This document shows positions 1-48,616 of a DNA stretch of 64,000 nt, piece by piece (the first letter of the stretch is position 1; each line of letters opens with the position of its first letter). The notes below the pieces were generated by a model. That model was given only the letters and a program-made list of their open reading frames with translations, had not been told where the DNA came from and searched no databases. Source of the DNA: a bacterium (GTDB lineage Bacteria > JAHJDO01); assembly GCA_043824255.1 (NCBI GenBank), contig JBDRTG010000047.1, positions 99,528 to 163,527 on the forward strand. Direction: 5' to 3'. The position numbers and the translations under genes were made by a program.

Positions 1-1146
1 ACCTATTATTATGCCCAAAAAACAGATTAAAACAGGTTCTATCACTGAGGTTAATCCGTCTACTGCAGCATCAACTTCGGATTCGTAAAAATCAGCGATC
101 TTTGTCAACATATCCTCCAGAGCGCCTGTTGCTTCACCAACCGATATCATTCTGACAACCATTGTTGGGAAAAAGTTACTTTTACTAAGCGGCTCTGCAA
201 TGCTTTTCCCCTCTTTTACACCTATTCCAACACTGCTAAGAGTTTTCTCCAAAACCTTATTCCCTGAAGTAGCTCCCACTATTTCAAGCGCCTTAAGAAT
301 AGGAACACTGCTCTTTATCAGTGTACACAGCGTTCTTGCAAACTTTGCCAGAGCTACCTTTTTCATAAGGCTACCAAAAATAATTATACGAAGTTTCAAT
401 CCGTCAAACTGAAGTCTTCCTTTTTCAGTCCGCACATATTTACGTAATAAGAAGAAAGCAACAGCTAAGATTCCTGCTACAATCAGAAAATAATCTTTGA
501 GAATCTCGCTCGTTCCTATAAGTACTCTTGTCGGAAGAGGAAGAGTTCCGCCAAAAGCATCAAAAATATTTTTAAACGTTGGAACTACTTTCAATATTAA
601 AACCATAACTATAAGGATAGACATACCCGTAACCACCGCTGGGTACACAAGAGCAGATTTTACCTTTCTGGCAAGTTTGGCGGAATTCTCAAGATATGTT
701 GCAAGACGGTTAAGGATTTCATCCAATGTCCCGCTTTCTTCCCCTGCCCTTACCATGCTGACATAAAATTCCGAGAACACTTTTTGCTGTTTTAAGAGAG
801 CCTGAGAAAAACTTTCCCCTCCCTCCACATCATCTTCCAGTTTTCTAACAAGTGTTTTTAAAGAAGGATTTTCCATTTGCTCAGCAAGTGTATCCAGCCC
901 CTGAACCAGAGGCAATCCTGCATTAACCATTGTAGCCAACTGTCTGCTAAAGAGAATTAAATCATTGGACTTTACTTTAGTGCTTTTCTTAAATATAGAT
1001 GCTCTTTTTTTTTGTTCAGTTATAGAGACTATTGTTAATTGGTTAGCCCTGAGAGTGCTAACGAGATTTTTTTCGCTTTCAGCAGAATGAAGAGCTTCTA
1101 TTCTCTTTCCATCTTTATCAATCGCAATATACTTATATGTCGGCAT
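1..1146 (-). CDS. pilC: Type IV pilus / T2SS inner-membrane platform protein PilC/GspF. The 3' end of the gene runs off the window start.
   Basis: The minus-strand reading frame begins at ATG 1146..1144. Its translation, MPTYKYIAIDKDG...LPLVQGLDTLAEQ...GESFSQAL, has the duplicated GspF/PilC polytopic pattern. It lies immediately downstream of the ATPase gene. Confidence 0.8.
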   Translation of the reverse strand, partial: MPTYKYIAIDKDGKRIEALHSAESEKNLVSTLRANQLTIVSITEQKKRASIFKKSTKVKSNDLILFSRQLATMVNAGLPLVQGLDTLAEQMENPSLKTLVRKLEDDVEGGESFSQALLKQQKVFSEFYVSMVRAGEESGTLDEILNRLATYLENSAKLARKVKSALVYPAVVTGMSILIVMVLILKVVPTFKNIFDAFGGTLPLPTRVLIGTSEILKDYFLIVAGILAVAFFLLRKYVRTEKGRLQFDGLKLRIIIFGSLMKKVALAKFARTLCTLIKSSVPILKALEIVGATSGNKVLEKTLSSVGIGVKEGKSIAEPLSKSNFFPTMVVRMISVGEATGALEDMLTKIADFYESEVDAAVDGLTSVIEPVLICFLGIIIG

Positions 1147-1203
1147 AAAAAACTCAAAGTGTAAAAATTAAAACTCAAAACTACTTAATGACAGTTTTAT
1201 TTA

Positions 1204-2910: not shown

Positions 2911-3440
2911 AATTTTTCTTTATTTTCCTTTTCTCTCACTAACTGCTTAAAGTCAACATCTGTCATATATTCTTCTGTGGTTCTGGTGATTTTCTTACGC
3001 TTCCCTGGGCCAAAATAACGAGTAATAATATCTTCAATATCCTCTCCCCCACTGACAAAGATTCTCACACTGGAGTTAGTGGCAATCTTTACATCCTCAA
3101 TTGCAGCATCGTTTAGCGGGTCAGCCATGGCTAATACTATGATATTATCCATTTTATCTATAGGAATTAGGTGATAATGCCTTATGATTGATTCCGGAAT
3201 TAACTTGAGTATATCCTGATCAATCTCATAGTTTTTCAAAGGGAGATATGGGAATCCAAACTGAGAAGTAAGGGCGTTAACCACCTGTTCCTCAGTCGCA
3301 GATCCCAGGCTGACTAAAATCTGACCCAGAAAACCACCCTTTAGCTCCTGAATTTTCAATGCTTCATCCAGTTGTCGTTCCGTAATAACATCTCTCTCTA
3401 TAAGTATCTTTCCGAGTCGTTTTCTAATAGTTCTTGACAT
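2907..3440 (-). CDS. Stand-alone T2SSE_N / MshEN-type domain protein, a predicted c-di-GMP binder
   Basis: 177 aa. It has two tandem motifs, RLGKILIERDVITERQLDEALKIQ and LGQILVSLGSATEEQVVNALTSQ, that resemble the 24-aa MshEN c-di-GMP motif. Its stop overlaps the pilB start by 4 bp. Confidence 0.6.
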   Translation of the reverse strand: MSRTIRKRLGKILIERDVITERQLDEALKIQELKGGFLGQILVSLGSATEEQVVNALTSQFGFPYLPLKNYEIDQDILKLIPESIIRHYHLIPIDKMDNIIVLAMADPLNDAAIEDVKIATNSSVRIFVSGGEDIEDIITRYFGPGKRKKITRTTEEYMTDVDFKQLVREKENKEKL

Positions 3441-3444
3441 AGTA

Positions 3445-4368
3445 TTATCCCGGAAACATAATCACTTTGTTCCCTTTTCCTTTCTTAGCCTGTTCCATTG
3501 CGCGATATAATTTATTATTTAATTCTTCTGCAACGTCGCCATCAATGGGGTTGGCAACTATACCTGCGCTTACAGTAATCTTTGTATCTTTTATTACACT
3601 TTTTGCATCTGGGATAGATTCATTGGCAACCGCTTTTCTTACTTTTTCAGCAAGAGCATAAGCTTCCTTTTTATTGATCTCAGGGAGAATAATGCAGAAT
3701 ATGGTATCCTTGCAACGAGCTACCTTGTCAATATCTCTTGCATTCTCCTTCAGGATACCTGCAATCTTCTTTATAACCTTATTCTTAATATTTCCGCCAA
3801 GTTTTTTCAAATATACATCCAGATTGTCAACATCAAACCCAATTATAGAACATGGACGCTCATACATAGCTGCCCGTTTCAACTCTTCGTTCAAATATTC
3901 TTCGTAATATTTCAAGTTATATAAGCCCGTTAATTTGTCTGTAATGGTTAAGGAATTGGTTTTTTCAAGCAATCTATTGATTTCATAGCTGAGACCGCTT
4001 ATTTTTGCCTCAGTTTGATAAAGATCAGACATATCCCCTCTAAGCTTTTTTGTAATTTTATCCAATGAGACGCTTAATTCGTCCATTCCCACTTCTTTTA
4101 ATTCCGGATCATCTGCTATTTTAGCTTTTGCCATCATCTTCACTATATTTGTATTAATTTTTTTAATCAGAAACATTAAGAACGCTATAACACCAAGCAG
4201 AATAGCTATGCTGACATAAAGCACAACCTGATCCCATGATAATGCGTATGTGCCTAAAAAAACAAATGCTCCTATCAATATCAGCATAATAATTACAAGA
4301 GCAATGTTTATAAAAATATTACGATGGGCATGTGCCTTTGTTATCGACATATCTTCGCTTCTCTTCAT
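3445..4368 (-). CDS. Membrane-anchored GGDEF-domain protein with a degenerate active site (KDTIF in place of GGDEF) and an intact RxxD I-site. It is predicted to be a c-di-GMP receptor rather than a cyclase.
   Basis: Two N-terminal TM helices are present. The GGDEF-fold landmarks are LTGLYNLKYY, FDVDNLDVY, the ARDIDKVARCKDTIF block aligned to RxxD...R-Y-GGEEF, ITVSAGIV and LYRAMEQAKKGKGNKV. Confidence 0.7.
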   Translation of the reverse strand: MKRSEDMSITKAHAHRNIFINIALVIIMLILIGAFVFLGTYALSWDQVVLYVSIAILLGVIAFLMFLIKKINTNIVKMMAKAKIADDPELKEVGMDELSVSLDKITKKLRGDMSDLYQTEAKISGLSYEINRLLEKTNSLTITDKLTGLYNLKYYEEYLNEELKRAAMYERPCSIIGFDVDNLDVYLKKLGGNIKNKVIKKIAGILKENARDIDKVARCKDTIFCIILPEINKKEAYALAEKVRKAVANESIPDAKSVIKDTKITVSAGIVANPIDGDVAEELNNKLYRAMEQAKKGKGNKVIMFPG

Positions 4369-8533: not shown

Positions 8534-9544
8534 TTAATACTCCTGCCAGGAACCGCTTACTATACGCCACGGCAGGTTGTTGTCAAAAGCATTTGCTACA
8601 TTGACAGAATTATAAACTACCAAGGGTCTTCCTGTAGATATTGTTGCAGATGTATCAGCTTGAGTCTGGACAAGAACTGACCCGGAAATCTCGGGATTTC
8701 CACTTATTGTCAGATTTCCAAATACATACATTATACCCTCAAATGTGCCGCCTGCTACATCAAGATCACCGTCTACTACAAGGATTCCGCTTCCATACCA
8801 TCCTGTCGTTGTAACCTTAAACGATGAATTATCCTGAAATTTAACCCAGGTAATTCCATCCACGTCTGAATTGTTCGGAGGGTCAGTATAGTTTCTGGTT
8901 GATATGCCTTCCATTTCTTCTTTCGTCAGGCCAAATATATCTTCAATTGATGGAAAAGGAGCATTACTTATTGGCGGACTGCCTGTTATTTCCCCAGAAC
9001 CATCTGTAGTGGCTGTAAAACCCGCTGGAACCGTTACGCCCGTACTGGTACCTCCGGCTATTAGTCCATTTCCACTGACCAGAACATTACCACCCGCTTG
9101 AAGTGCAGAATTAACAGCTCCTGGATTTCCAATTCGTTCCGCATCAACTTTCACTGTCCTTTCTACCTTGTCTATATTTGTCACGCTCGGAGTATATCCG
9201 GTTGCTGTGATAGCCGCACTTGTTGATGTTACGTTTGATACGCTTATTGTATAATCTCCTATAACCTTCCCATCTTGGGTCTGGAAGGAAAGAACGGTCT
9301 TTGTGTAAACTGCTCCTGAAGTGTCCCAGCCAACCCATGAACCCTGGCCAAATCCTAGCTCCCATAATGCCGCCTGAACTCCTGATTCTGCAAGATTCCT
9401 TGCTGCAGATAGACGATAGGACCTGATTGTAAGCTTTTTTTGGAAAACGACTGTGGAAAGATACGCTCCGGCTATAATGGCAATAATAAGCATCACTATA
9501 GCTGAAATAACCAATACGCTTCCGCGTCTATTTCTATACATCAA
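8534..9544 (-). CDS. PilX_N-like pilus-associated protein, a putative tip or minor pilin adhesin
   Basis: It has an N-terminal hydrophobic helix followed by LAESGVQAALWELG (PilX N-terminal pattern). Its C-terminal half has G/S/T-rich beta-helix-like repeats. It is a paralog of the upstream gene. Confidence 0.55.
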   Translation of the reverse strand: MMYRNRRGSVLVISAIVMLIIAIIAGAYLSTVVFQKKLTIRSYRLSAARNLAESGVQAALWELGFGQGSWVGWDTSGAVYTKTVLSFQTQDGKVIGDYTISVSNVTSTSAAITATGYTPSVTNIDKVERTVKVDAERIGNPGAVNSALQAGGNVLVSGNGLIAGGTSTGVTVPAGFTATTDGSGEITGSPPISNAPFPSIEDIFGLTKEEMEGISTRNYTDPPNNSDVDGITWVKFQDNSSFKVTTTGWYGSGILVVDGDLDVAGGTFEGIMYVFGNLTISGNPEISGSVLVQTQADTSATISTGRPLVVYNSVNVANAFDNNLPWRIVSGSWQEY

Positions 9545-10701
9545 TCATACCATTGAGTAACCGTAACAGTTCCAGGAAATCCCCCGGGATTTACATTCGC
9601 CAAGGCTTCATCATAATGAATGCCGCCGTTTCCACTATCTTGTACTGTATCCCCTACAAATGCGCCAAAAAGGTCTCCATTCCCTGAAACCTTCAACTCG
9701 GCTTTCGGGGCATATATTGCTCCTGCAAAGTCTCCATTACCTGTAAATTGCACACTTGTACAACTATCTGTTCCATAAAGCAGACAATCGGATGGGGTGC
9801 CAGGATTTGAGATACCATTCCCAGTTATATGACAAGTTCCTGAGACGTAAATAGTAACCTCGCCACTAATTATTAATGTTGCATTTCCTGTAATCTGTAT
9901 TGATGTAAACCAATATGTTCCGGATGTAAGGGTCTGTGTATTATTCCCTGATATTGACAAACCACCACTACTACTTACACCAGCTGGGACAGTGACTGAT
10001 GGCATTGGAAACAGAGTGGATGCAGCTGTTTTTTGCCCATTCAATACAGCGTTTCCAGAAGTGGTTATTGCAGTATTTACATCCCCACCCGGACCAATCT
10101 GAGCATTTCCATTAACTATAGCATTCCCACTTAAAGCGACGGCTCCGGATGATGTTGCATTAGTGCCCACAGAACCGTTGCTACCGGGTGACTGACTGGC
10201 ATACGTTCCATTGTCAGAGTTATAGCTATCGGACGCACCGTTACCTGAAAGAGTAACGCTCTTATCTCCAAATATTCCTTGTGTAAACGGCGAACCGCTT
10301 ACCTGAAGATTAGCATTTATTAACTTGGAAAACCTGTTTATGTCAGTTACATTGGGAGCTGTTCCTGTAGCTGTAACTGTAGGAGTACCTGTAGCTGAGT
10401 TGTTAACTGTGACCGTAACACTTCCCACTGCTCTGCCGCCTGCGTCTGATAGAGTAATGGTTTGGACAGGATCTCCGTTTGCATCAACTGCCCAGGTGGT
10501 AATATCGCCATATGCATATTCATAAATTGCTCTTTCTATGCCTGCTTCTGCAAGATTGACCGCAGCTGTATGCCGATATGACCTATTTGTCATTCTATTC
10601 TCAAAAACAATTCTCGAGAGATAGGTACCCGCTATGACAAATAAGGATGTAGAAACCAAAGCAGTTAGTACCAGAATGCTACCTTTTCTGTTCAGTTTCA
10701 A
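9541..10701 (-). CDS. PilX_N-like pilus-associated protein with an extensive G/S/N/T-rich repeat region, a putative adhesin
   Basis: The N-terminal helix is followed by LAEAGIERAIYEYAYG. Repeats include SGNGASDSYNSDNGTYAS and GNAIVNGNAQIGPGGDVNTAITTSGNAVLNG. Confidence 0.55.
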   Translation of the reverse strand: MKLNRKGSILVLTALVSTSLFVIAGTYLSRIVFENRMTNRSYRHTAAVNLAEAGIERAIYEYAYGDITTWAVDANGDPVQTITLSDAGGRAVGSVTVTVNNSATGTPTVTATGTAPNVTDINRFSKLINANLQVSGSPFTQGIFGDKSVTLSGNGASDSYNSDNGTYASQSPGSNGSVGTNATSSGAVALSGNAIVNGNAQIGPGGDVNTAITTSGNAVLNGQKTAASTLFPMPSVTVPAGVSSSGGLSISGNNTQTLTSGTYWFTSIQITGNATLIISGEVTIYVSGTCHITGNGISNPGTPSDCLLYGTDSCTSVQFTGNGDFAGAIYAPKAELKVSGNGDLFGAFVGDTVQDSGNGGIHYDEALANVNPGGFPGTVTVTQWYD

Positions 10702-12272: not shown

Positions 12273-12710
12273 TTATTGCAGTGTATATGGATTATTAGTA
12301 GCCTGAAAATTTGGCCCATGGCTTGTCAGACTTGGACAAGTAATCTGAAATACCCCAACTGTTGATGAAGCCGCTGTATAAGCACCAGATGCTATAGGAC
12401 ATGTAGGAGCTGTCTTCAGGTATGCTGTACTGCCTACTATTCCCCATGTTCCTGTTGCAGGAGCTGCGTTCCATGTAATCGAAGCAATTCCAGCACCAGC
12501 ACCAGTAGCGTCAAGATCTTCCTCCATGCACACCTGTTCAAGGGCTGATGCAATCTGTTTCATGCCATTTACGCATACAGCATCTCTGGATCTACTTCTG
12601 GACTTGATGAAGTTAGGAATAGCTATCGCTGCTAAAAGCCCAATAATCGCTACAACAATCATAATCTCAACAAGCGTAAAACCTCTTTTACTGCGAAGTA
12701 ATCTAATCAT
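12273..12710 (-). CDS. pilA: Type IV pilin (PilA/GspG-like). It is promoter-proximal and the likely major pilin.
   Basis: KRG|FTLVEIMIVVAIIGLLAAIAIPNF. The C-terminus has Cys pairs. It lies directly downstream of a GG-N10-GC promoter and a GGAGG ribosome-binding site. Confidence 0.85.
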   Translation of the reverse strand: MIRLLRSKRGFTLVEIMIVVAIIGLLAAIAIPNFIKSRSRSRDAVCVNGMKQIASALEQVCMEEDLDATGAGAGIASITWNAAPATGTWGIVGSTAYLKTAPTCPIASGAYTAASSTVGVFQITCPSLTSHGPNFQATNNPYTLQ

Positions 12711-12758: not shown

Positions 12759-12778
12759 AAGCATTTTTCGTGCCAAAG
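12759..12778 (-). promoter_or_regulatory. Sigma54 (RpoN)-type -24/-12 promoter upstream of the pilin operon
   Basis: The minus strand reads cTTTGGCACGaaaaATGCt, with TGGCAC followed by N10 and then GC. It lies about 45 bp upstream of the pilin ATG. Confidence 0.6.
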
Positions 12779-12931
12779 ATATCAGGGCACATCCCCCTGA
12801 ATCCCCCTTCGAAGGGGGACAGTTTCGCCGTAGGCGGAATTAGGAGGATGTTTTCCCCGCCCGAAAACGGGTTCAAAATATTGAATCCCTACAAAAAATT
12901 TTAGTTATCAGGCAAAATATTTTGACATATT

Positions 12932-12965
12932 TGTGAAATAAGCAAAAAAAATTGCCTATTTCACA
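12932..12965. promoter_or_regulatory. 9-bp perfect inverted repeat TGTGAAATA-N16-TATTTCACA in the divergent intergenic region. It is a candidate regulator or enhancer-binding site.
   Basis: The inverted repeat is seen directly in the sequence. It lies about 170 bp upstream of the sigma54-type promoter and about 50 bp upstream of the histidine kinase start. Confidence 0.4.
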
Positions 12966-13016
12966 ATAAAATATAAAGCTTCTTGCAAATTCCCTAAAAA
13001 AGTTCTAACATCATTC

Positions 13017-14621
13017 ATGCTGGAGAATCAAAAGGAAACAAAAATTACCATTTTGACAATTTTTGATGAAGAATGTGGAGCTCGGGAACTTCCTTTGGAG
13101 AAAAAGCTTATTACTATTGGAAGACTGGCAGATAATGATATTATAATTTCGGACAAGAGTATATCCGGAAAACATCTTAAACTCACTTTTTTGAATAATG
13201 ACTGGATATTGGAAGATATGCATTCTACGAATGGCAGCTTTGTAAATGGAGAACTTGTTGAAGAAAAGAAGCTGGACGACGGCGACGAGATAGTTATAGG
13301 CAAAACAAGAATTCTATTCGGGGAAACATCTTCTTTCCCGCATCCAGAAGAGAGCTCTTTTACTATTATAAAGGCTGTAACGCCTAGCGCTGTTATTCCC
13401 CCCTCTTATGAAACTGCAAGTAACGAGGAGTTAAAGAGAACTCATAAAATATTAGCTACCCTTTATAAGGCCAGCGAACTTCTTAGTTCTGCACTTAAAT
13501 TAGAAGACGTCCTGAATAAAATTCTGGATTTGATTTTTCAACACATTAGTGCTGACCGAGTTCTTATTATACTCAAAGATGAATTAACAGGTAAACTTGT
13601 TCCTAAAGCAGTGAAGAAAAGAGACGAAAAAGATAGGGCAGAATTAACCGTAAGCCACAGTATTATGAGTAAGGTTTTAGATGAAGGTAAATCGGTAATC
13701 TGTTCGGATGCTTTAGAAGACAAAAGATTTAAAGAACAAATGAGTATTATCCAGCATCAAATTCATTCAGCAATGTGTGTCCCTCTAAGAACAAAAGACA
13801 GAGCCTTGGGCGTAATTTATGCTGATACACTCATGATTAAAGGGGCTTTTAACACCGAAGATTTAAACTTGCTTACTGCATTAGGTAACGAAGCTGCGCT
13901 GGCTATAGATAATGTGCGTTTATATGAAAAAAATCTTAAGGCAGAGCGATTAGCTGGTATAGGACAGGCCATAACCGGCATGGCACACTATGTCAAGAAT
14001 ATTCTCGTGGGGATGGATGGTGGTGGCATCTTAGTAGATATGGGAATAAAACAAAAAAACAATACTTTAATGAATAAAGGGTGGAAGTTAGTTAAAGCCT
14101 CTACAAATAAAGTAAGAGACGTGGTGATGGACATGCTAACCTATTCTAAAGAAAGAAAGCCGCAGCTGCAGCCATGTAATCTAAATGATGTCGTAGATGA
14201 AGTTATAGAGCTAATGAGTAAAAAGGCTGAAGATGCGGGCATTAAACTGCATGCTCATCTTGAGGAAAATATTGGACAGTTCTTATTAGATCCTCAAGTC
14301 ATCCATCGTTCTCTGCTTAACTTGATAAATAATGCTTTTGATGCGATGGAGAAAGATGGGAAAATTACAATTGCTACAGAGTATATAGTTGAGGGGGATC
14401 AGCTTAAATTGTCTGTGTCTGATACAGGATCCGGAATACCTGAAGATGTATTAACAACTCTTTTTACACCTTTTTATTCAAGCAAGGGATTGAAGGGAAC
14501 AGGTCTCGGATTAGCAGTGACACATAAGATAATTAAAGAACATGGTGGAAGAATAGATGTGAATTCCGAGGTCAGCAAAGGGACTACCTTCAGTATATTT
14601 TTACCTGCAAGAAAAGAATAA
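13017..14621 (+). CDS. Cytoplasmic sensor histidine kinase with N-terminal FHA and GAF domains
   Basis: The FHA domain is ITIGRLADNDIIISDKSISGKHLKL...STNGSFVNGE. A GAF region follows. The HisKA segment is MAHYVKNIL, and the HATPase N, G1 and G2 boxes are LINNAFDAM, SDTGSGIP and GTGLGLAV. There is no TM segment. Confidence 0.8.
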   Translation: MLENQKETKITILTIFDEECGARELPLEKKLITIGRLADNDIIISDKSISGKHLKLTFLNNDWILEDMHSTNGSFVNGELVEEKKLDDGDEIVIGKTRILFGETSSFPHPEESSFTIIKAVTPSAVIPPSYETASNEELKRTHKILATLYKASELLSSALKLEDVLNKILDLIFQHISADRVLIILKDELTGKLVPKAVKKRDEKDRAELTVSHSIMSKVLDEGKSVICSDALEDKRFKEQMSIIQHQIHSAMCVPLRTKDRALGVIYADTLMIKGAFNTEDLNLLTALGNEAALAIDNVRLYEKNLKAERLAGIGQAITGMAHYVKNILVGMDGGGILVDMGIKQKNNTLMNKGWKLVKASTNKVRDVVMDMLTYSKERKPQLQPCNLNDVVDEVIELMSKKAEDAGIKLHAHLEENIGQFLLDPQVIHRSLLNLINNAFDAMEKDGKITIATEYIVEGDQLKLSVSDTGSGIPEDVLTTLFTPFYSSKGLKGTGLGLAVTHKIIKEHGGRIDVNSEVSKGTTFSIFLPARKE

Positions 14622-14637
14622 TTTTTACAGAATAGCT

Positions 14638-15024
14638 TTAATCCAAGAATTCTTTTAGAAGCTCTATAATTTTTGCAATACTTCCGGTTTGCTTACCAAA
14701 CTCTTTGTGAACATAATGTGCGCCTTCAAGAACTTTATTATCAAACTGTTCCTTTGTAAGACCAGTATGAAAAATTATTGGTATTTGTTCATATTGAGGA
14801 TTTTCCTTAAGATAGTCTCTTACAGTGCCACCATGCCCTACCATAACCATATCCAGTATGGCAGCATCAATATGTGGCTTCTTGGTGCTAAGCAGGTCTA
14901 TGGCATTTTTACCATTAGGAGCGTCAAACACCTCGTAACTACAGCCAGCTTCTAATATTGTCTTTAATGCCTCCCTCAGCTCATTATCATCCTCTACTAT
15001 CAAAACAGTTTTCTTGCCCATCAT
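14638..15024 (-). CDS. Single-domain response regulator (CheY-like receiver)
   Basis: LIVEDD, D in ILDMVM, T in HTG and K are present. It is 128 aa with no output domain. Confidence 0.8.
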   Translation of the reverse strand: MMGKKTVLIVEDDNELREALKTILEAGCSYEVFDAPNGKNAIDLLSTKKPHIDAAILDMVMVGHGGTVRDYLKENPQYEQIPIIFHTGLTKEQFDNKVLEGAHYVHKEFGKQTGSIAKIIELLKEFLD

Positions 15025-15102
15025 CTCCCTCCTATCGCTCTTATATCTCTTTCTCTTAATAAAATTCTACTACATTATCCTGAGAACTGTCAAATCCGTG
15101 TC

Positions 15103-17286
15103 CTAAGGTCTTCTGCGATAGTCCTCTCTGCGACGGGGCTGGTCACGTCTATCAGAAGGCCCCATACACATCTCTTTAGCCAGATGGGCGGCAAATTCCT
15201 GTGCTCCTAAACCCATCATTTTGCCAATTCTTTTCATATCGTTATAACGATTTTTCAGAAGATAATTCTCTAATAGTTTGCGATCGCCTTTCATAGCTAA
15301 CCCCATTAGCTTCATATCCGCTTCCATCAATTTTTCTATTTCGCCTTTAATTTTTCTTCCTGCCTTAAACATTGGTCCTTCTTCAATTACATCAGGACGC
15401 CTTCCGTCTCTACTTGGAGGAGGCCCAAACTCATCCATCATTATTCTAGCGCATATACCAGTAAACTCCCTTGCTTCTAAACCTACTATCTTACCGATTC
15501 TATTCATCTCTTCATAATGATTTTGCTGAAGATAATTTTCTAAAAGCATGTAGTCGCCCTTCATAGTCAGTCCCATTAACTTCATATCCTTCTCCATCAA
15601 TTTCTCCAGTTCCATCACAATCTTCTTCTCTGGGCCAGAAAGAGGGGTATCTTTAATCATGTCAGGTCGATATTCATCCCTACTTGGAGGAGGACCAAAC
15701 TCATTTATCATTATTCCGGCGCATATACCAGTAAACTCCCTCGCTTCTAAACCTACTATCTTGCCGATTCTATTCATCTCTTCATAGTGATTTTGCAGAA
15801 GATAATTTTCTAAAAGCAGGTGGTCACCAGTCATAGTCAGGCCCATCAACTTCATATCCTTCTCCATCAATTTCTCCAGTTCCGTTACAATCTTCTTCTC
15901 CGTACCGGTAAGAGGCTCCTCTCTTATTCCCCTTACCCCTTTCCCTGTCTTCTCAAACTCCTCAATCCTCTTGATAGCCTCCTTAGCCAGTTTTGCACAT
16001 TTAGTGTCAGGATACTTAATCACAATCTCCTGATAGCCTGATATGGCTTTTATTATTTCACCCTTGTTCTCCATGTCCTGCGCGCGATTAAATAAGGTTT
16101 CTATTTTCTCTTCATCGATTTTCTTTTTAACATATGTAATCTTTGCCCGGGCATTATCTGCGGCAAGAGTTACCGGATAGTTATCAATAATCTTCTGATA
16201 ATACATCATGGCCTGGCTGTATTGTTTCTCTTTAGCTGATTTATCCCCTTTAGAGAAGAGCTGCTCAATTTCGTCCTGTTCTTTGGCCTGATAGCTTGAG
16301 GCAGAAGAAGGAGAAATGGAAGGTTTCAATGTCCGTCTTGAAAACCTTTTGCCTAAGATAACACCAACCATAGCAATTATTATCACCGAAAATACAATGA
16401 TAAGTAATTTACGTCTTCCTTTTTTCTGAGGCGACACTTCAGAAGAAGTACTAATAGGGCTGGGATGAAAAGCGCCTGCTCGATATTTGTTTATATCTTC
16501 AAGTATTTCAGTTGCTGTTTGATATCTGTGGCTTAGATCCTTTATCAGGCATTTTCTAACAATGAATTCTACTTCCCACGGGAGGTCAGGATTTACCTCT
16601 GGTACAGGCCTAGCCTCTACATTTATATGCTGCTGCATAACTCCGTACGGGGTCTCCGCCTTAAAAGGAACCTCTCCTGTCAACATCTCATAAAAAACTA
16701 TACCAAGAGAGTAAATGTCTGAGCGGGAATCTGTTTTCTCTCCTTTAGCCTGCTCCGGAGACATATACTCCGGCGTACCCATAATGGTTCCTGTAAGTGT
16801 GATGCTCTCAGATTCCACAGCTTTAGCTATGCCAAAATCAGTTACTTTTACATGACCATTGTTATCTATCATTATATTTCCCGATTTTATATCGCGATGA
16901 ATTACCCCCTCTTTGTGAGCACATTCCAAAGCCTCAGCAACCTGAAAAGTGATGCTTAAAGCATCCTCACAGGAAAGTGCTCCCCGCTGTTTTATAATCT
17001 CGGTCAAAGTCTGTCCCTTGATAAGTTCCATGGCAAAGTAATACATTCCCTTGTGCTCACCAATGTCGTAGATTTGAACAATCCGGGCATGATTTAATTT
17101 TGCTACTGCTTTAGCCTCACGCTGGAACCTCTCCACAAGGTCTTTGTCTTTAGATAAATGAAATGGAAGAATTTTTATAGCTACATGCCTGTTGAGAGAC
17201 TCTTGATAGGCTTCATAGACGGTACCCATCCCTCCGCTTCCTAATTCTCTGATTATCTTGTATTGTCCGATTTTTTGCCCGATCAT
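15103..17286 (-). CDS. Hanks-type Ser/Thr protein kinase. A TM helix follows the kinase domain, and the extracytoplasmic part has TPR-like helices and three tandem 90-aa repeats.
   Basis: Kinase motifs are GSGGMGTVY, AIK, HRDIKSGNIM, DFGIAK and GTPEYMSPE. The TM segment is LLIIVFSVIIIAMVGVILG. The C-terminus carries three 90-aa repeats. Confidence 0.85.
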   Translation of the reverse strand: MIGQKIGQYKIIRELGSGGMGTVYEAYQESLNRHVAIKILPFHLSKDKDLVERFQREAKAVAKLNHARIVQIYDIGEHKGMYYFAMELIKGQTLTEIIKQRGALSCEDALSITFQVAEALECAHKEGVIHRDIKSGNIMIDNNGHVKVTDFGIAKAVESESITLTGTIMGTPEYMSPEQAKGEKTDSRSDIYSLGIVFYEMLTGEVPFKAETPYGVMQQHINVEARPVPEVNPDLPWEVEFIVRKCLIKDLSHRYQTATEILEDINKYRAGAFHPSPISTSSEVSPQKKGRRKLLIIVFSVIIIAMVGVILGKRFSRRTLKPSISPSSASSYQAKEQDEIEQLFSKGDKSAKEKQYSQAMMYYQKIIDNYPVTLAADNARAKITYVKKKIDEEKIETLFNRAQDMENKGEIIKAISGYQEIVIKYPDTKCAKLAKEAIKRIEEFEKTGKGVRGIREEPLTGTEKKIVTELEKLMEKDMKLMGLTMTGDHLLLENYLLQNHYEEMNRIGKIVGLEAREFTGICAGIMINEFGPPPSRDEYRPDMIKDTPLSGPEKKIVMELEKLMEKDMKLMGLTMKGDYMLLENYLQQNHYEEMNRIGKIVGLEAREFTGICARIMMDEFGPPPSRDGRRPDVIEEGPMFKAGRKIKGEIEKLMEADMKLMGLAMKGDRKLLENYLLKNRYNDMKRIGKMMGLGAQEFAAHLAKEMCMGPSDRRDQPRRREDYRRRP
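15110..15930. repeat. Three direct tandem repeats with a 270-bp period inside the Ser/Thr kinase gene. Copies 1 and 2 are nearly identical and copy 3 is diverged.
   Basis: Anchor strings recur exactly 270 bp apart. ttcatatcc occurs at 15311, 15581 and 15851. ctccagttcc occurs at 15604 and 15874. Confidence 0.85.
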
Positions 17287-17389
17287 ACTCCCAATCTCTC
17301 CGTCAAAAAGAATTCTTTACTTTTCAAGCTGTCTCACGTTTCAATTCCTAAGATATAATAGATTGTCTCTCACTAAAAATCAAGTAAGG

Positions 17390-17480
17390 CGGAGAGGGAG
17401 GGATTCGAACCCCCGGTCCCGAAAAATCAGGACAACAGATTTCGAGTCTGCCGCTTTCAACCGGACTCAGCCACCTCTCC
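17390..17480 (-). tRNA. tRNA-Ser (anticodon CGA) with a long variable arm
   Basis: The reverse complement is GGAGAGGTGGCTGAGTCCGGTTGAAAGCGGCAGACTCGAAATCTGTTG...GGGGTTCGAATCCCTCCCTCTCCG, which folds as a cloverleaf. Confidence 0.8.
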
Positions 17481-17580: not shown

Positions 17581-18042
17581 ATGCAAAAGACTATTCTTTT
17601 CGTTTGTACTGGGAACAGCTGTCGTAGTATTATGGCTGAGGGATTACTTAAAAAGATGCTTTCTGAAAAAGGCGTTGAAGAATACAGTAAGTATAAAATT
17701 ATCTCTGCTGGAACTCATACAGTTGAAGGATTCCCTCCTGTTCACATGACACAGAAGGTTATGAATGAGCAAGACATAGATGTCTCTTCATACAAGTCAA
17801 ATAAATTAACAAAGGAAACAGTAAATAAAGCTGATCTTGTTCTGGTAATGACTCAGAAACATAAAGATGAAATACTTCGTATTTATCAGGAAAAGACAAA
17901 GAAAATATTTCTGCTTAAAGAATTTGCGGGAATTGAGGATAAAAATCCGGATATAGCAGATCCTATCGGATTGTCCTATGACGCGTATAAATACTGTATG
18001 GAAGAAATAGAAAAATGTTTAATAAAGATAAGGTTGCAATAG
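17581..18042 (+). CDS. Low-molecular-weight protein phosphatase, the YwlE/LMW-PTP family with the CX5R motif
   Basis: ILFVCTGNSCRS is the P-loop. It lies immediately upstream of rpiB-glyA, as in Bacillus ywlE-ywlF-glyA. Confidence 0.8.
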   Translation: MQKTILFVCTGNSCRSIMAEGLLKKMLSEKGVEEYSKYKIISAGTHTVEGFPPVHMTQKVMNEQDIDVSSYKSNKLTKETVNKADLVLVMTQKHKDEILRIYQEKTKKIFLLKEFAGIEDKNPDIADPIGLSYDAYKYCMEEIEKCLIKIRLQ

Positions 18043-18497
18043 CTGCCGACCACGGTGGATGGCACTTAAAAGAAATTCTTAAGCCCTTTTTGGAAGGCTT
18101 GGGTTATAAGTATAGTGATTTTGGCACATCATCTGAAAAAGCCGTTGATTATCCGGATTTTGCGTTAGTACTGGCTGAAGCGATGAGAGCGGGTAAATAT
18201 AAAAAAGGAATATTGATATGTGGAACTGGTCTGGGCATGTCTATGTCAGCCAATAAGATTCCGGGTATTAGGGCGGCTTTGTGTAACGATATATTCACTG
18301 CAAAGATGAGTAGAGAACATAATGATGCAAATATTCTGGCAATTGGCGGACGAGTAGTTGAAGAAGAATTGGCAAAGGAAATAGTTAAAGTATGGCTCCA
18401 GACAAAATTCAGTAACGCGCCTCGTCATAAGCAAAGAATAAAAAAAATCAAAGAAATTGAAAGCAAATACATGGGGACTTCAAAAAAAGCAATATGA
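18015..18497 (+). CDS. rpiB: Ribose-5-phosphate isomerase B (RpiB/LacAB family)
   Basis: [15 protein letters not shown] and [16 protein letters not shown] are present. Confidence 0.85.
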
Positions 18498-19741
18498 GTA
18501 ATTTAAAAACAACTGACCCAGAAGTAGCAAAAGCAATCTATAATGAAACAAAAAGAGAAGCTTCAAACCTTGAGCTTATTGCATCAGAAAATTTCGTGAG
18601 CGATGCTGTGCTTGAGGCCCAGAGCTCAGTAATGACCAATAAATATGCAGAAGGCTATCCTCATAAAAGATACTATGGCGGATGCGAATTTGTTGATGTT
18701 GTTGAAGACTTGGCCATAAAAAGAGCAAAAGAGATTTTTGGAGCTGACCATGCAAATGTGCAGCCACATTCCGGCTCACAGGCAAATATGGCGGTTTATT
18801 TTTCCATGTTGGATATGGGAGATACAATTCTAGGTATGGACTTAAGCCATGGTGGACATTTAACACACGGCAGTCCGGTAAACTTTTCGGGGAAATATTT
18901 TAATATTATCTCTTACGGAGTGAGTAAGAAAACAGAAACAATAGACTATGAATATGTAGAAAAATTAGCACTTGAAGAGAAACCTAAATTGATAATTGCA
19001 GGCGCTAGCGCTTATCCTCGCATAATAGATTTCGCAGCATTTAGAAAGATTGCAGATAAAGTAAATGCATACCTTATGGTAGATATGGCTCATTTTGCAG
19101 GACTTGTTGCAGCAAAAATTTATCCAAGCCCTATTCCATACGCTGATTTTGTTACTACTACTACACATAAAACATTGAGAGGGCCACGCGGAGGCATGAT
19201 TCTTTGCAGGGGAAAGTATGCAAAACAAATAGACAAAATGATTTTCCCTGGTATTCAGGGAGGGCCTCTGATGCATGTCATAGCTGCTAAAGCTGTTGCG
19301 TTCAAGGAAGCTATGGCAAAAGGATTTAATGATTATCAGAAACAAATCGTAAGAAATGCCAAGGCACTTGCCTTAGAACTGAATAAAAGAGACTTTCGAC
19401 TTGTTTCCGGCGGAACAGATACCCATCTTATACTACTGGATTTAACTAATAAATGTATCTCAGGCAAGGACGCAGAGAAGGCATTAGATGTTGCCGGAAT
19501 AACAGTAAATAAAAATGCTATTCCATTTGATAAACAAAGCCCATTTATTACTAGTGGAATAAGAATAGGAACTCCTGCAGTAACTACAAGAGGTATGAAA
19601 GAGCCTGAAATGAAGTTAATTGCAGAAATGATAACAAAGGTGCTTACGAACATTAATGATACGGATAATCTTAAACAGACCTTATCAATGGTGACTAGTC
19701 TCTGCAAACAATTCCCTTTGTATGTCAACAAACTCCGGTAA
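18494..19741 (+). CDS. glyA: Serine hydroxymethyltransferase
   Basis: It is 415 aa and has the PLP-Lys region [14 protein letters not shown]. Confidence 0.95.
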
Positions 19742-21230
19742 ATTAAAATTCCTGACACTTACCTCAGCAATTAGTGTCATATTCCTGGTTCTTGTAATTT
19801 TAAATATTTTTCCATTAGGTATTAAAAGCGAATGGACTTGGGAATATTCTTCTACAAAAAATTTTGATGGGATCTGGTTTCCAGTACTTGTTTCCTGCAT
19901 TTTGCTTCTGCTGTGTTATAATTTAATAGCTTATAAGAAATTGACAGGTTCCAAACCCCCAATAGAATTTATCCATATAGTCCTTATATGCTTTCTTAGC
20001 TATCTTTTTAACATTGCTATTTGCTACTTAAATACAGCAGGCTTCTATAATCTAATTCTGACTATTATAAGTCCCTGGGCAACCGGCTATTTCAATGTTG
20101 CTGTTGAGATTAGAGATATTAGTTATTGGTTAAGCAATTTTCATGCTTTTGTTGAATATGCTCCCTTACATGCCAGAGTACATCCTCCAGGAAATATATT
20201 ATTTTTCTGGTGGATAATTCACATATTTAATAGTTTACCCACCCTAACAGATTCTTTACTAAATATGGTAAAGAGCACTACATTCAACCCTCTGCCTGTA
20301 TTTTCTGTTATTGGAGATGCTTTTGGACATTTCTTCAGTGATGCTGAAAAAGCCGCATCAGTATTTCTGTCGTTATCTTTGCCATTTCTTAAATGTGCTG
20401 TGATTATTCCCATGTATTATTTGGGGAAACTTATATATGGCAAAAAAACAGCTTTAGTTGCAGTATGTTTTTATGCAGTTATTCCTGCACTTAATTTATT
20501 TACGCCTGGAATGGACCAGACATATACTCTGGTTTCTGTCTTATCTTTTTATTTATTTTGCCTCTCTATTAAAAAAAATAATATTTGGTTTACTCTTCTT
20601 TCTGGACTGGTTTTATCAATAGGCATTATGCTGAGTTTCTGTTTTCTGGTTATCTTGGGTCTGATAATTTGTTATGGCCTAATATGGTTTTGGATAAATA
20701 AAACACATTTAAATTACATATTAAAGAGTTTTTTAGTATTGTTTGTAGCTTTTACAGCTCTCCCTTTATTATTTTATCTTTTATATGACTTTAATATTAT
20801 AAAATTTTTCGTGAGTATTAATGTGTTTTCAGAAAATGCGCGATTAGATATCATCCGCGGTGAGGTCGCACGCCGAACATACTGGAAATGGCTATTATAT
20901 AATCCTGTAGATTTTTTCTTGTTTGTTGGCATCCCGATTTCAGTGCTTTCTTTCAGAAGTATTTATAGTATTATAAAGTCAGGAAAAATAGAAGCATCCA
21001 ATATCTTATCTGTGGCTTTTTTTAGCATACTATTTTTACTTCTGTTCTCTGGAATAAATCGCTCTGAGGTAGCAAGATTATGGATGTTCCTCATGCCCTT
21101 TCCTGCATTAATAGCAGCCTCACAAATAAAGACGAAAACTAGTTCTGCTTTCTTAATACTACTTTCCCTGCAGATCCTTCAAACAATAGTTTTCAAGTTA
21201 TTCATAAATGTATATGGGATAATTAGCTGA
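19722..21230 (+). CDS. Polytopic integral membrane protein with at least 12 TM segments, possibly a GT-C-type glycosyltransferase or oligosaccharyltransferase
   Basis: It is a 502-aa hydrophobic protein and overlaps glyA by 20 bp. No diagnostic motif was recognised by eye. Confidence 0.3.
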
Positions 21231-48615: not shown

Positions 48616-48616
48616 A

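What the first reader, a model, noticed from the sequence alone, without database searches (positions are those of the whole stretch)
13017..17286. Linked eukaryotic-like and two-component signalling: an FHA-GAF-histidine kinase, a lone receiver and a membrane Ser/Thr kinase next to the pilus promoter
FHA domains bind phospho-threonine. Here an FHA domain is fused N-terminally to a GAF domain and a soluble histidine kinase. Its gene is divergent from the pilin promoter and convergent with an orphan receiver and a Hanks kinase that has an extracytoplasmic sensor region.

The arrangement suggests a relay. The Ser/Thr kinase would phosphorylate a target that the FHA domain recognises, which would control histidine-kinase activity and the receiver. 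Given the position, the output could be pilus expression. The combination is uncommon and, as far as I know, not characterised.
Basis: inference. Interest (0 to 1): 0.6.

Follow-up and report, generated by a model that had tools for sequence, protein, structure and literature searches.

The report
FHA histidine kinase beside pilin operon
An uncultured, Omnitrophota-like bacterium has a soluble histidine kinase with a phospho-threonine-reading FHA domain next to a lone receiver, a membrane Ser/Thr kinase and a probably sigma-54-driven pilin operon; related genomes repeat these pairings in other gene orders, so this looks like a real but untested wiring of Ser/Thr signalling into a two-component switch for pili.

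Summary
13017-14621(+) encodes FHA-GAF-DHp-HATPase_c with no membrane segment. 14638-15024(-) is a complete single-domain receiver. 15103-17286(-) is an active-looking Hanks kinase with one membrane segment and a 415-aa C-terminal region. They are the only histidine kinase, receiver and Ser/Thr kinase in the 64 kb.

- **Not rare:** FHA-GAF-HK is a large, uncharacterised family (more than 1,800 database hits, mostly Planctomycetota and Omnitrophota-like).
- **Kinase link:** Ser/Thr kinases with unrelated sensor domains sit beside its members in at least five gene orders. The only full-length homologue of this kinase sits beside an FHA-GAF-PP2C protein.
- **Receiver link:** small receiver genes directly precede 31 of 80 planctomycete orthologues.
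- **Pilus link:** pilin genes recur near the kinase in relatives at 67% and 48-50% identity.
- **New:** the pilin gene has a conserved sigma-54-type promoter, the kinase core is ZraS/AtoS/NtrB-like, and the two 66-67% relatives have an NtrC/PilR-type activator beside the kinase. No such activator is in this window.

So the likely transcriptional output is an activator encoded elsewhere, and the lone receiver is a side branch or phosphate sink. This is a new variant of known Ser/Thr-to-two-component crosstalk (Myxococcus EspA, GarA-type FHA switches, PilS-PilR). Interest is moderate.

The parts
13017..14621 (+). FHA-GAF-histidine kinase, 534 aa, soluble
   Evidence: Pfam and NCBIfam; family alignment with invariant catalytic and FHA residues; no membrane segment; AF2 model, pLDDT 77
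13110..13301 (+). FHA domain (aa 32-95) with intact phospho-threonine pocket: R36, S50, H53, N72
   Evidence: Pfam 3.7e-19; residues invariant in 20 homologues; best PDB relatives are GarA, Rv1827 and OdhI at about 1e-10
13326..13421 (+). Disordered Ser/Thr/Pro-rich linker between FHA and GAF (aa 104-135)
   Evidence: pLDDT about 30; 44% S/T/P here against 15% for the whole protein; length varies from 28 to 102 aa in homologues, each with at least one Thr
13500..13907 (+). GAF domain (aa 162-297)
   Evidence: Pfam GAF, GAF_2 and GAF_3
13914..14147 (+). DHp helices with phospho-acceptor His324 (codon 13986-13988), of the NtrB/ZraS/AtoS type
   Evidence: NCBIfam AtoS and ZraS alignments over aa 300-533; PDB ZraS 2e-30; H324 invariant; continuous GAF-to-DHp helix at aa 280-345
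14289..14612 (+). HATPase_c catalytic domain (aa 425-532)
   Evidence: Pfam 5.7e-27; N, G1, F and G2 boxes invariant
14638..15024 (-). Single-domain receiver, 128 aa, acceptor Asp58 (codon 14851-14853)
   Evidence: Pfam Response_reg; D12, D13, D58, T87 and K107 present; only 6 homologues in 5.8 billion clusters; still convergent with the kinase gene in a relative with 72% (receiver) and 66% (kinase) identity
15064..15093 (-). Sigma-70-like promoter (TTGACA, 18 nt, TAGAAT; 11 of 12 positions) in the gap between the Ser/Thr kinase and receiver genes
   Evidence: Best-scoring site in the consensus scan. This is a pattern match only; overall site counts equal the shuffled expectation.
15103..17286 (-). 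Membrane Hanks-type Ser/Thr kinase, 727 aa
   Evidence: Pfam and NCBIfam; membrane segment; full-length homologues are only P0121 (89%) and P0166 (32%)
16498..17262 (-). Kinase catalytic domain (aa 9-263)
   Evidence: Pkinase 2.8e-61; catalytic motifs read from the sequence
16351..16407 (-). Single transmembrane segment (aa 294-312)
   Evidence: Kyte-Doolittle 19-residue mean 3.16
15967..16299 (-). TPR / BamD(YfiO)-like helical region (aa 330-440), predicted to lie outside the cytoplasm
   Evidence: Weak Pfam TPR_6 (27.3 bits), YfiO and TPR_Slam; NCBIfam BamD and YbgF hits below cut-off
15106..15921 (-). Three tandem 90-aa helical repeats (aa 456-545, 546-635, 636-727), a lineage-specific orphan module
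   Evidence: Repeat register; DNA tandem repeat of period 270 at 91% identity; 1 hit among 1.84 billion representatives; weakly similar copies in P0166
12760..12775 (-). Sigma-54-type promoter element TGGCAC-N5-ATGCT (GG-N10-GC), 50-65 nt upstream of the pilin ATG
   Evidence: Only match in the 64 kb; kept in relatives L091, L092 and L094 while the flanking spacer diverges; a similar element lies before the pilin gene of L121
12931..12966 (.). 15-nt inverted repeat TTGTGAAATAAGCAA / TTGCCTATTTCACAA, about 155-190 bp upstream of the sigma-54 element; candidate regulator site
   Evidence: The right arm and inner part are conserved in relatives; the left outer part is not. Function is inferred only.
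12273..12710 (-). First pilin gene of a type IV pilus operon that runs to the window start (pilins, PilM/O, secretin, GGDEF, MshEN, PilB, PilC)
   Evidence: N_methyl, PilA and GspG hits; operon content; PilC-like ORF running off the window start
17388..17480 (-). tRNA-Ser(CGA), upstream boundary of the Ser/Thr kinase gene
   Evidence: ARAGORN

Best explanation
This is a signalling node in which a cytoplasmic NtrB/ZraS-type histidine kinase takes two inputs. One is a phospho-threonine mark written by the neighbouring membrane Hanks kinase and read by the FHA domain. The other is an unknown ligand or state sensed by the GAF domain.

Proposed sequence; every step is inferred and none is shown:
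1. An extracytoplasmic cue acts on the TPR-plus-repeat ectodomain, and the Ser/Thr kinase autophosphorylates on activation-loop or juxtamembrane threonines.
2. The FHA domain, tethered by a roughly 30-residue disordered Ser/Thr/Pro-rich linker, docks on those phospho-threonines. Alternatively it binds a phospho-threonine placed in its own linker, as in GarA/OdhI.
3. This changes autophosphorylation at His324, through recruitment or through the continuous GAF-DHp helix.
4. Phosphate goes to the lone receiver (Asp58) and most probably also to an NtrC/PilR-type sigma-54 activator encoded outside this window. That activator drives the sigma-54-type promoter of the divergent pilin operon. The lone receiver acts as a competing sink or a protein-protein output branch.

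Functionally, the FHA-GAF kinase takes the place of PilS. Pilin expression would then follow a Ser/Thr-kinase-sensed surface or envelope signal rather than membrane pilin levels.
For: Domain integrity:
- All catalytic and phospho-threonine-binding residues are conserved.
- The FHA domain is closest to GarA/OdhI, and the kinase core is closest to ZraS and AtoS, which are partners of sigma-54 activators.
- The model shows a tethered FHA domain and a continuous GAF-DHp helix.

Link between the Ser/Thr kinase and the FHA domain:
- Ser/Thr kinases lie next to family members in different arrangements and with unrelated sensor parts.
  - Upstream CHASE2-kinase with abutting or overlapping genes: L001-L005, 48-50% identity.
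  - Upstream 426-aa kinase: L123, 51%.
  - 1.7 kb downstream: L007, 40%.
  - Convergent 1,300-1,450-aa kinases: L019, L023, L052, L076. Co-directional: L065, L089.
- In 80 planctomycete loci, 6 of the 13 Ser/Thr kinase genes within 10 kb lie less than 300 bp from the kinase gene, against 4% expected (binomial 6e-6, not corrected for relatedness).
- The only distant full-length homologue of this Ser/Thr kinase (P0166, 32% identity over 96% of the query) is directly followed by an FHA-GAF-SpoIIE protein. Its FHA-GAF half is 31% identical to this kinase (E 7e-49).

Receiver:
- It stays convergent with the kinase gene in L118 (72% and 66% identity) even though the upstream gene differs.
- A small receiver ORF lies directly upstream on the same strand in 31 of 80 planctomycete loci. 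Of 6 upstream ORFs tested with Pfam, 4 pass the gathering cut-off.
- L023, L052 and L076 carry the same three gene types in another order.

Pilus and sigma-54:
- The sigma-54 element is the only match in 64 kb and sits 50 nt before the pilin ATG. It is conserved in relatives at about 88-95% identity while the spacer diverges.
- L121 (67% identity) reads kinase, then REC-Sigma54_activat-HTH_8, then a second kinase, then pilins, with a GG-N10-GC element before the pilin gene.
- L118 has the activator immediately upstream of the receiver.
- L001-L005 have a FecR-T2SSG pseudopilin-like gene at the head of the operon.
- PilS-PilR with sigma-54 is the established control of pilA (PMC6058289).
Against: - No phosphorylation, binding or expression data exist. 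All links rest on gene neighbourhood.
- In most planctomycete loci (about 90%) no Ser/Thr kinase is adjacent, and the kinase looks like an orphan.
- The 64 kb contains no sigma-54 activator, no rpoN and no PP2C phosphatase.
- The sigma-54 pattern count is not significant window-wide (1 found against 0.52 expected). Only its position and conservation make it credible.
- The receiver orthologue at 64% identity lies elsewhere, next to metabolic genes.
- Some planctomycete 'receivers' lack the acceptor Asp.
- Close adjacency to pilin genes is seen only in the Omnitrophota-like clade. The 67% relative is truncated at its 5' end, so its FHA domain and upstream gene are unseen.
Confidence: 0.5

Rival explanations
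1. This is a PilS-like kinase only. The FHA-GAF kinase works with an NtrC/PilR-type activator encoded elsewhere to control the pilin operon. The Ser/Thr kinase is an unrelated neighbour. The FHA domain reads a different phosphoprotein or serves in dimerisation, and the lone receiver is incidental.
For: - An activator is adjacent in the two closest non-trivial relatives, where no Ser/Thr kinase is seen in the available sequence.
- The kinase core is ZraS/AtoS-like.
- A sigma-54 element lies at the pilin gene.
- The slot held by the Ser/Thr kinase here is held by the activator in L118.
Against: - Ser/Thr kinases are adjacent in at least five other arrangements, with positional enrichment.
- The full-length homologue of this Ser/Thr kinase pairs with an FHA-GAF-PP2C protein.
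- The FHA phospho-threonine pocket is invariant.
- The sequence upstream of the L121 kinase gene is not available.
Confidence: 0.2
2. The juxtaposition is coincidental. Three independent signalling genes happen to be neighbours, and the kinase is an orphan whose output has nothing to do with pili.
For: - Most planctomycete orthologues have neither a Ser/Thr kinase nor pilin genes nearby.
- Flanking genes differ widely between lineages.
- The receiver orthologue at 64% identity is unlinked.
Against: - These are the only HK, REC and Ser/Thr kinase genes in 64 kb, and they are contiguous.
- Each pairing recurs in rearranged form in other lineages.
- Positional enrichment is 6e-6.
Confidence: 0.12
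3. The crosstalk is direct, without FHA docking. The Hanks kinase phosphorylates the receiver or the histidine kinase on Ser/Thr, as PrkC/StkP-type kinases do with WalR- or CovR-type regulators (from my own knowledge). The FHA domain plays no reader role. Output runs through the single-domain receiver acting on the pilus motor or on c-di-GMP proteins, not through transcription.
For: - The Ser/Thr kinase and receiver genes are co-directional and 78 bp apart.
- The pilus operon carries GGDEF and MshEN proteins that could be post-translational targets.
- Single-domain receivers act through protein contacts.
Against: - A strong sigma-70-like promoter lies between the Ser/Thr kinase and receiver genes.
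- The gene upstream of the receiver is replaced by an activator in L118, so the kinase-receiver pair is not conserved.
- Conservation of the FHA pocket and of Ser/Thr kinase pairing with FHA-GAF proteins argues for a reader role.
Confidence: 0.1
4. The Ser/Thr kinase is a PD-T4-6-like anti-phage kinase, and the cluster is a defence module.
For: PADLOC PD-T4-6 models hit the kinase domain strongly (5e-112). NCBIfam MADS6 and PglW hits also occur.
Against: - The hits cover only the generic catalytic domain (aa 1-270).
- The histidine kinase and the receiver have no meaningful PADLOC hits.
- The context is housekeeping and pilus genes.
- The conserved partner is an FHA-GAF signalling protein.
Confidence: 0.03

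Closest known systems
Myxococcus xanthus EspA/EspC with the Ser/Thr kinases PktA5 and PktB8
   Same: A histidine kinase with an N-terminal FHA domain (from my own knowledge) whose signalling is tied to Hanks kinases. PMC4320627 states that PktA5 acts with PktA8 and EspB and may interact with EspA. The NCBIfam EspA and EspC models hit the kinase core.
   Different: EspA is a hybrid kinase with PAS domains and a fused receiver, and it controls MrpC turnover. Here the sensor is GAF, the receiver is a separate gene, and pilin genes are the neighbours. The EspA model scores 92.6 bits against a cut-off of 1400, so this is not an orthologue.
PilS-PilR, the sigma-54-dependent control of pilA (Pseudomonas, Geobacter, Kingella)
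   Same: A kinase gene next to the major pilin gene, a sigma-54-type pilin promoter, and an NtrB-class kinase core. In the 67% relative the order is kinase, NtrC-type activator, then pilins (PMC6058289).
   Different: PilS has six membrane segments that sense PilA (PMC6058289). This kinase is soluble with FHA and GAF inputs. No PilR-type activator is in this window. A lone receiver and a Ser/Thr kinase are present instead.
GarA/OdhI/Rv1827 FHA switches controlled by PknB/PknG
   Same: These are the closest solved FHA domains (about 1e-10). The concept is the same: an FHA domain beside a disordered Thr-bearing segment that a Hanks kinase can phosphorylate.
   Different: GarA and OdhI are small stand-alone regulators of metabolic enzymes. 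Here the FHA domain is fused to a histidine kinase, and the putative acceptor linker lies C-terminal to the FHA domain.
Cyanobacterial 'dual protein kinases' (HstK family: Ser/Thr kinase + GAF + HisK + HATPase in one chain)
   Same: A Hanks kinase feeds a GAF-histidine kinase (PMC1262709). That fusion is Rosetta-stone-type support for the same logic.
   Different: There the link is covalent. Here it is proposed to be non-covalent, through an FHA reader encoded in a separate gene.
ZraS-ZraR and AtoS-AtoC (NtrC-family two-component systems)
   Same: These give the best sequence matches to the DHp and catalytic core. Both signal to sigma-54 activators.
   Different: Both are membrane sensors with periplasmic or PAS inputs. 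Scores fall far below the equivalog cut-offs (199.5 against 646 for AtoS; 153.8 against 479 for ZraS).

Membership tests
FHA domain (phospho-threonine reader) | Conserved G-R, S-x-x-H and N-G pocket residues on an 11-stranded beta-sandwich | tested here: met
   Pfam FHA 69.3 bits against a cut-off of 20.7. G35, R36, S50, H53, N72 and G73 are invariant in 20 homologues. The beta-sandwich at aa 11-103 has pLDDT 80-90. The motif definition is from PMC1262709.
FHA domain (phospho-threonine reader) | Phospho-dependent binding to a Thr-phosphorylated partner | not testable with these tools
   This needs pull-down or ITC with phosphopeptides.
Class I sensor histidine kinase | DHp with a phospho-acceptor His, plus N, G1, F and G2 boxes | tested here: met
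   H324, N435/N439, D469-G471-G473, F483/F486 and G494-G498 are invariant. HATPase_c 94.8 bits. Pfam HisKA itself does not hit, but AtoS, ZraS and PDB ZraS align across the DHp.
Receiver domain (phosphorylatable) | Acidic pair, acceptor Asp, Thr/Ser and Lys at canonical positions | tested here: met
   Response_reg 48.3 bits against 30.2. D12, D13, D58, T87 and K107 were read from the sequence.
Hanks-type Ser/Thr kinase (active) | G-loop, VAIK Lys, HRD, DFG and (S/T)PE motifs | tested here: met
   Pkinase 207.7 bits. GSGGMG, VAIK, HRDIK, DFG and TPEYMSPE are in the sequence.
PilS-PilR pilin regulatory system | Kinase gene adjacent to the major pilin gene | tested here: met
   Divergent across 306 bp. 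Also seen in L091, L092, L094 and L121.
PilS-PilR pilin regulatory system | Sigma-54 promoter at the pilin gene | tested here: inconclusive
   TGGCAC-N5-ATGCT lies at the correct position and is conserved in close relatives. However, 1 match against 0.52 expected window-wide, and there is no transcript data.
PilS-PilR pilin regulatory system | Cognate REC-AAA+(GAFTGA)-HTH activator encoded with the kinase | tested here: not met
   No GAFTGA or Sigma54_activat ORF in the 64 kb. One is present beside the kinase in relatives L121 and L118.
PilS-PilR pilin regulatory system | Six-segment membrane domain of PilS that senses pilin | tested here: not met
   No membrane segment.
Myxococcus EspA/EspC family | NCBIfam equivalog score; hybrid architecture with PAS domains and a fused receiver | tested here: not met
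   EspA 92.6 bits against 1400 and EspC 102.1 against 1200. No PAS domain and no fused REC.
FHA-GAF-HK family (unnamed, PVC and Omnitrophota-like lineages) | Full-length collinear FHA-GAF-DHp-HATPase_c homology | tested here: met
   33-95% identity over 93-100% of the length for nearly all of the top 120 hits, 119 of which have the same Pfam architecture; the exception is one partial sequence. Alignment A1.
PD-T4-6 anti-phage kinase | Single-gene defence kinase; homology beyond the generic catalytic domain | tested here: not met
   The hits cover only aa 1-270. The context is not a defence island.

The most novel reading that the evidence does not exclude
FHA-GAF would be a portable 'phospho-threonine reader plus ligand sensor' cassette through which bacterial Hanks kinases drive either a His-Asp pathway (FHA-GAF-HK) or a PP2C phosphatase (FHA-GAF-SpoIIE). 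In Omnitrophota-like bacteria this cassette would have replaced the membrane sensor of PilS. Type IV pilus production, probably needed for attachment to other cells, would then be commanded by a surface-sensing Ser/Thr kinase, with a lone receiver tuning the flux. That would define a widespread, unstudied class of Ser/Thr-to-two-component converters across Planctomycetota and their relatives.
Probability: 0.3. Interest if true: 0.65.

Novelty: new variant of a known kind. Interest (0 to 1): 0.45.

Why it matters
How bacterial Hanks kinases connect to two-component systems is known only from scattered cases, and no FHA-bearing histidine kinase has a worked-out mechanism. This family is large and has all catalytic and reader residues conserved. 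It recurs beside Ser/Thr kinases and small receivers, and it has members in cultured planctomycetes (Singulisphaera acidiphila DSM 18658, Botrimarina mediterranea, Tundrisphaera lichenicola). The proposed FHA-mediated gating of a histidine kinase is therefore directly testable.

For Omnitrophota-like bacteria, it would tie expression of an adhesin-bearing type IV pilus to an envelope- or surface-sensing kinase. If the links prove incidental, the locus is an ordinary set of signalling genes.

Tried and rejected
- **Metagenome scan with the kinase alone.** It returned one close relative (L094) plus paralogous GAF kinases that appear to lack FHA, followed by receivers. This was of little use for synteny.
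- **Genome scan with the family alignment.** No Omnitrophota genomes came back, so the intermediate relatives came only from the 12 contig look-ups.
- **AF2 model of the Ser/Thr kinase ectodomain without an alignment.** It had pLDDT 50.8 and was all-helical, so it was unusable and no fold search was run.
- **Exhaustive search with the 90-aa repeat region.** It found one hit, a close relative, so the module cannot be assigned.
- **Search for a GAFTGA activator, rpoN or PP2C in the window.** None was found.
- **PADLOC.** Only generic kinase-domain hits, so the defence reading was rejected.
- **LMW phosphatase at 17581-18042 as the kinase's partner phosphatase.** Rejected. It belongs to an LMW-PTP, RpiB, SHMT run; the resemblance to Bacillus ywlE-rpiB-glyA is from my own knowledge. 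In L091 an ABC-transporter/TPR operon separates it from the Ser/Thr kinase gene.
- **The dxr and rseP genes near a planctomycete orthologue and in this window.** Judged coincidental.
- **Literature.** No paper in the library characterises an FHA-GAF histidine kinase. The primary EspA paper was not held.
- **The outer arms of the 12931-12966 palindrome.** These are not conserved on the left side in relatives, so no operator claim is made.

Full report
**1. What is there**

The region holds three genes exactly as described.

The gene at 13017-14621(+) encodes a 534-aa protein.
- Pfam finds FHA (aa 32-95), GAF (aa 162-297) and HATPase_c (aa 425-532).
- Pfam HisKA is not detected. The NCBIfam AtoS and ZraS models and the ZraS structure align continuously over aa 300-533.
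- In a 20-sequence family alignment several features are invariant: the phospho-acceptor His324, the N, G1, F and G2 boxes, and the FHA phospho-threonine pocket (G35-R36, S50-x-x-H53, N72-G73).
- The protein has no membrane segment.
- An AF2 model built on that alignment (mean pLDDT 77) shows three things. There is a well-folded FHA sandwich. A disordered linker spans aa 108-133. The GAF domain's last helix runs without a break into the DHp helix that carries His324.
- The linker is 44% Ser/Thr/Pro. Its length varies from 28 to 102 aa among homologues, and every homologue has at least one Thr in it.

The gene at 14638-15024(-) encodes a 128-aa receiver with all five canonical residues and no output domain.

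The gene at 15103-17286(-) encodes a Hanks kinase with intact catalytic motifs and one strong membrane segment at aa 294-312. A 415-aa C-terminal region follows.
- That region has a weakly TPR/BamD-like stretch.
- It then has three exact-register 90-aa repeats.

These are the only HK, REC, FHA, GAF and Hanks-kinase genes in the 64 kb. The rest of the window is housekeeping: RpoD, DnaG, SecA, ProRS, Der, Dxr, RseP, IspG, pyruvate dehydrogenase and others.

**2. Surroundings**

A full type IV pilus operon runs on the minus strand from 12710 to the window start. It contains:
- two major-type pilins and PilV-like and other minor pilins;
- a DUF7305 / adhesive-domain protein;
- PilM, PilO and a secretin;
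- a GGDEF protein, an MshEN-only protein and an MshEN-bearing PilB ATPase;
- PilC, whose ORF runs off the window start.

The 306-bp divergent intergenic region has TGGCACGAAAAATGCT on the pilin strand at 12760-12775. This is a GG-N10-GC sigma-54-type element 50 nt before the pilin ATG, with a GGAGG ribosome-binding site in between.
- It is the only match in 64 kb. The window-wide expectation is 0.52. By my arithmetic, chance placement in this one intergenic region on the right strand is about 0.001.
- It is unchanged in L091 and L092. The adjacent spacer, by contrast, is rearranged.

A sigma-70-like site matching 11 of 12 positions lies in the 78-bp gap between the Ser/Thr kinase and receiver genes. 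The receiver may therefore be transcribed on its own.

tRNA-Ser bounds the cluster on the other side.

**3. The family**

The FHA-GAF-HATPase_c architecture is not rare.
- A capped search gave more than 1,800 homologues.
- 119 of the top 120 share the architecture over nearly the full length; the exception is one partial sequence.
- Source names include Candidatus Omnitrophica, Planctomycetota, Hydrogenedentota and Deltaproteobacteria.

The nearest named relatives of the kinase and the receiver are Omnitrophica MAGs, so the window is probably from that phylum.

**4. Neighbourhoods of relatives**

| Relative (kinase identity) | Gene order |
|---|---|
| L091, L092, L094 (about 88-95%) | Same order as the window |
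| L118 (kinase C-terminus 66%, receiver 72%) | Sigma-54 activator with GAFTGA, overlapping the receiver start; then the receiver; then the convergent kinase |
| L121/L122 (67%, Omnitrophica MAG; 5' end cut by the contig) | Kinase; REC-Sigma54_activat-HTH_8 (55% identical to the L118 fragment); a second HisKA kinase; pilin genes preceded by cGGtAT-N5-TTGCA |
| L123 (51%) | 426-aa Ser/Thr kinase, then the kinase |
| L001-L005 (48-50%) | MamI-like gene; FecR-T2SSG pseudopilin-like gene; CHASE2-Ser/Thr kinase; the kinase. Genes abut or overlap |
| L007 (40%) | Kinase, Fic, Ser/Thr kinase |

In the same MAG as L121, the receiver orthologue (64% identity) lies elsewhere, among metabolic genes.

In 80 planctomycete loci at 33-38% identity:
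- Most orthologues have no Ser/Thr kinase nearby.
- Of the 13 Ser/Thr kinase genes within 10 kb, 6 lie less than 300 bp from the kinase gene. Four are convergent, as here, and two are co-directional. The expectation is 4% (binomial 6e-6, not corrected for shared ancestry).
- 31 of 80 loci have a small receiver-like ORF directly upstream on the same strand. Of 6 upstream ORFs tested with Pfam, 4 pass the gathering score. Some lack the acceptor Asp.
- L023, L052 and L076 carry receiver-like, kinase and Ser/Thr kinase genes together, in a different order from the window.

The Ser/Thr kinase has only two full-length relatives.
- One is the near-identical P0121, which is 90 aa shorter and so probably has one repeat fewer.
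- The other is P0166 (32% identity over 96% of the query, with the same TPR-like and repeat layout).
- P0166 is immediately followed by an FHA-GAF-SpoIIE(PP2C) protein. Its FHA-GAF half is 31% identical to that of this kinase (E 7e-49).

**5. Reading**

Three associations recur in rearranged form. This is the usual signature of functional coupling rather than inherited synteny.
- **Ser/Thr kinase with FHA-GAF proteins.** This link is the strongest. It holds across unrelated kinase sensor domains and across two output types, a histidine kinase and a PP2C phosphatase.
- **FHA-GAF kinase with a small receiver.**
- **FHA-GAF kinase with pilin genes.** This is seen only within the Omnitrophota-like clade.

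The new element is sigma-54. The pilin promoter looks sigma-54-dependent. The kinase core belongs to the class that serves NtrC-type activators. The two closest non-trivial relatives have such an activator beside the kinase. A receiver without an output domain cannot activate that promoter.

The most economical model is therefore a PilS-PilR-like circuit (PMC6058289) with three changes.
- The membrane sensor of PilS is replaced by FHA and GAF inputs.
- The activator is encoded outside this window.
- The lone receiver is a second acceptor, acting as a sink or as a protein-contact output.

The FHA step is modelled on GarA/OdhI, the closest solved FHA domains. It could be docking on autophosphorylated threonines of the Ser/Thr kinase. 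It could instead be an intramolecular switch that uses the disordered Thr-bearing linker.

Every mechanistic step is inference. Only domain integrity, gene order and their conservation are shown.

**6. Comparison with known systems**

- **Myxococcus EspA.** It is an FHA-bearing hybrid kinase functionally tied to PktA5/PktB8 (PMC4320627; the FHA domain of EspA is from my own knowledge). Equivalog scores are far below cut-off, and the PAS domains and fused receiver are absent, so this is not a member.
- **Cyanobacterial HstK 'dual kinases'.** They fuse a Ser/Thr kinase, GAF and a histidine kinase in one chain (PMC1262709). That is the covalent version of the same logic.
- **PilS-PilR.** It matches in position, promoter type and kinase class. 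It fails on the membrane sensor and on a co-encoded activator.

No paper in the searched library describes an FHA-GAF histidine kinase.

**7. Verdict**

- This is a new variant of known Ser/Thr-to-two-component crosstalk, in a large uncharacterised family.
- Interest is moderate (0.45). The idea is not surprising in principle, but it is well supported by comparative data and testable in cultured planctomycetes.

Noticed in passing
window 15106-15921 (-), aa 456-727 of the Ser/Thr kinase: Three tandem 90-aa helical repeats form the C-terminal end of the kinase. Two copies are 91% identical at the DNA level. The 89%-identical relative P0121 is 90 aa shorter, suggesting copy-number change. The module has a single hit among 1.84 billion representative proteins, and only weakly similar copies occur in P0166.
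   Followed up: partly
window 1-4368 (-) and 36209-36604 (+): The pilus operon carries a GGDEF protein (3445-4368), an MshEN-only protein (2907-3440), a PilB ATPase with an MshEN N-terminal domain (1204-2910) and PilC running off the window start. A stand-alone PilZ protein lies at 36209-36604. This suggests c-di-GMP control of pilus assembly.
   Followed up: partly
window 9541-10701 (-): A 386-aa protein within the minor-pilin block has DUF7305 and a putative ice-binding-like adhesive domain (pAdhesive_15). It is a candidate pilus-tip adhesin.
   Followed up: no
window 12789-12870: A G+C-rich stretch with several palindromes (for example TCCCCCTTC/GAAGGGGGA at 12802-12819) lies in the intergenic region between the pilin and kinase genes. 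In relatives L091, L092 and L094 it is replaced by unrelated A+T-rich sequence, so it looks like a small insertion.
   Followed up: partly
L093 2246-3856: An FHA-GAF-SpoIIE (PP2C) protein lies directly after the only distant full-length homologue of the Ser/Thr kinase. A similar FHA-GAF_3-SpoIIE gene lies 4.4 kb from the kinase orthologue in L008. The FHA-GAF cassette therefore occurs with two different outputs.
   Followed up: partly
L011-L090, directly upstream of the kinase orthologue (e.g. L030 9521-9928, L052 2344-2757): A family of small receiver-like proteins with a conserved C-terminal KPYHFGPL-like motif precedes the kinase in 31 of 80 planctomycete loci. In Planctomycetaceae examples the acceptor Asp is replaced (for example by His), so these may be pseudo-receivers.
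   Followed up: partly
L001 2106-3522 and L004 4534-5899: A MamI-like small protein and a FecR-T2SSG (pseudopilin-like) fusion protein head the operon that contains the CHASE2-Ser/Thr kinase and the FHA-GAF kinase.
   Followed up: no
window 17581-19741 (+) versus L091 4316-7826: An LMW phosphotyrosine-phosphatase-family gene, RpiB and SHMT form a run. In the 90% relative, an ABC-transporter plus TPR operon sits between this run and the Ser/Thr kinase gene, where the window has only tRNA-Ser. This is an indel next to a tRNA gene.
   Followed up: partly
L011, L013, L017, L021, L034 (2.4-5.8 kb downstream of the kinase orthologue): In these planctomycete loci, several of them named Isosphaeraceae, a REC-sigma-54 activator gene lies a few kb downstream of the FHA-GAF kinase orthologue on the same strand.
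   Followed up: no
window 43980-44915 (-): A CsgG-like (curli secretion channel) domain is fused to several C-terminal zinc-ribbon domains, an unusual combination.
   Followed up: no
window 47038-49093 (+): An N6/N4 DNA methylase followed by a TdeIII-family type II restriction endonuclease, in a low-GC stretch (about 32-33%).
   Followed up: no
window 19722-21230 (+) and 29695-31260 (+): Two large ORFs (502 and 521 aa) have no Pfam hit at 1e-5. The first lies in a low-GC stretch (32%).
   Followed up: no
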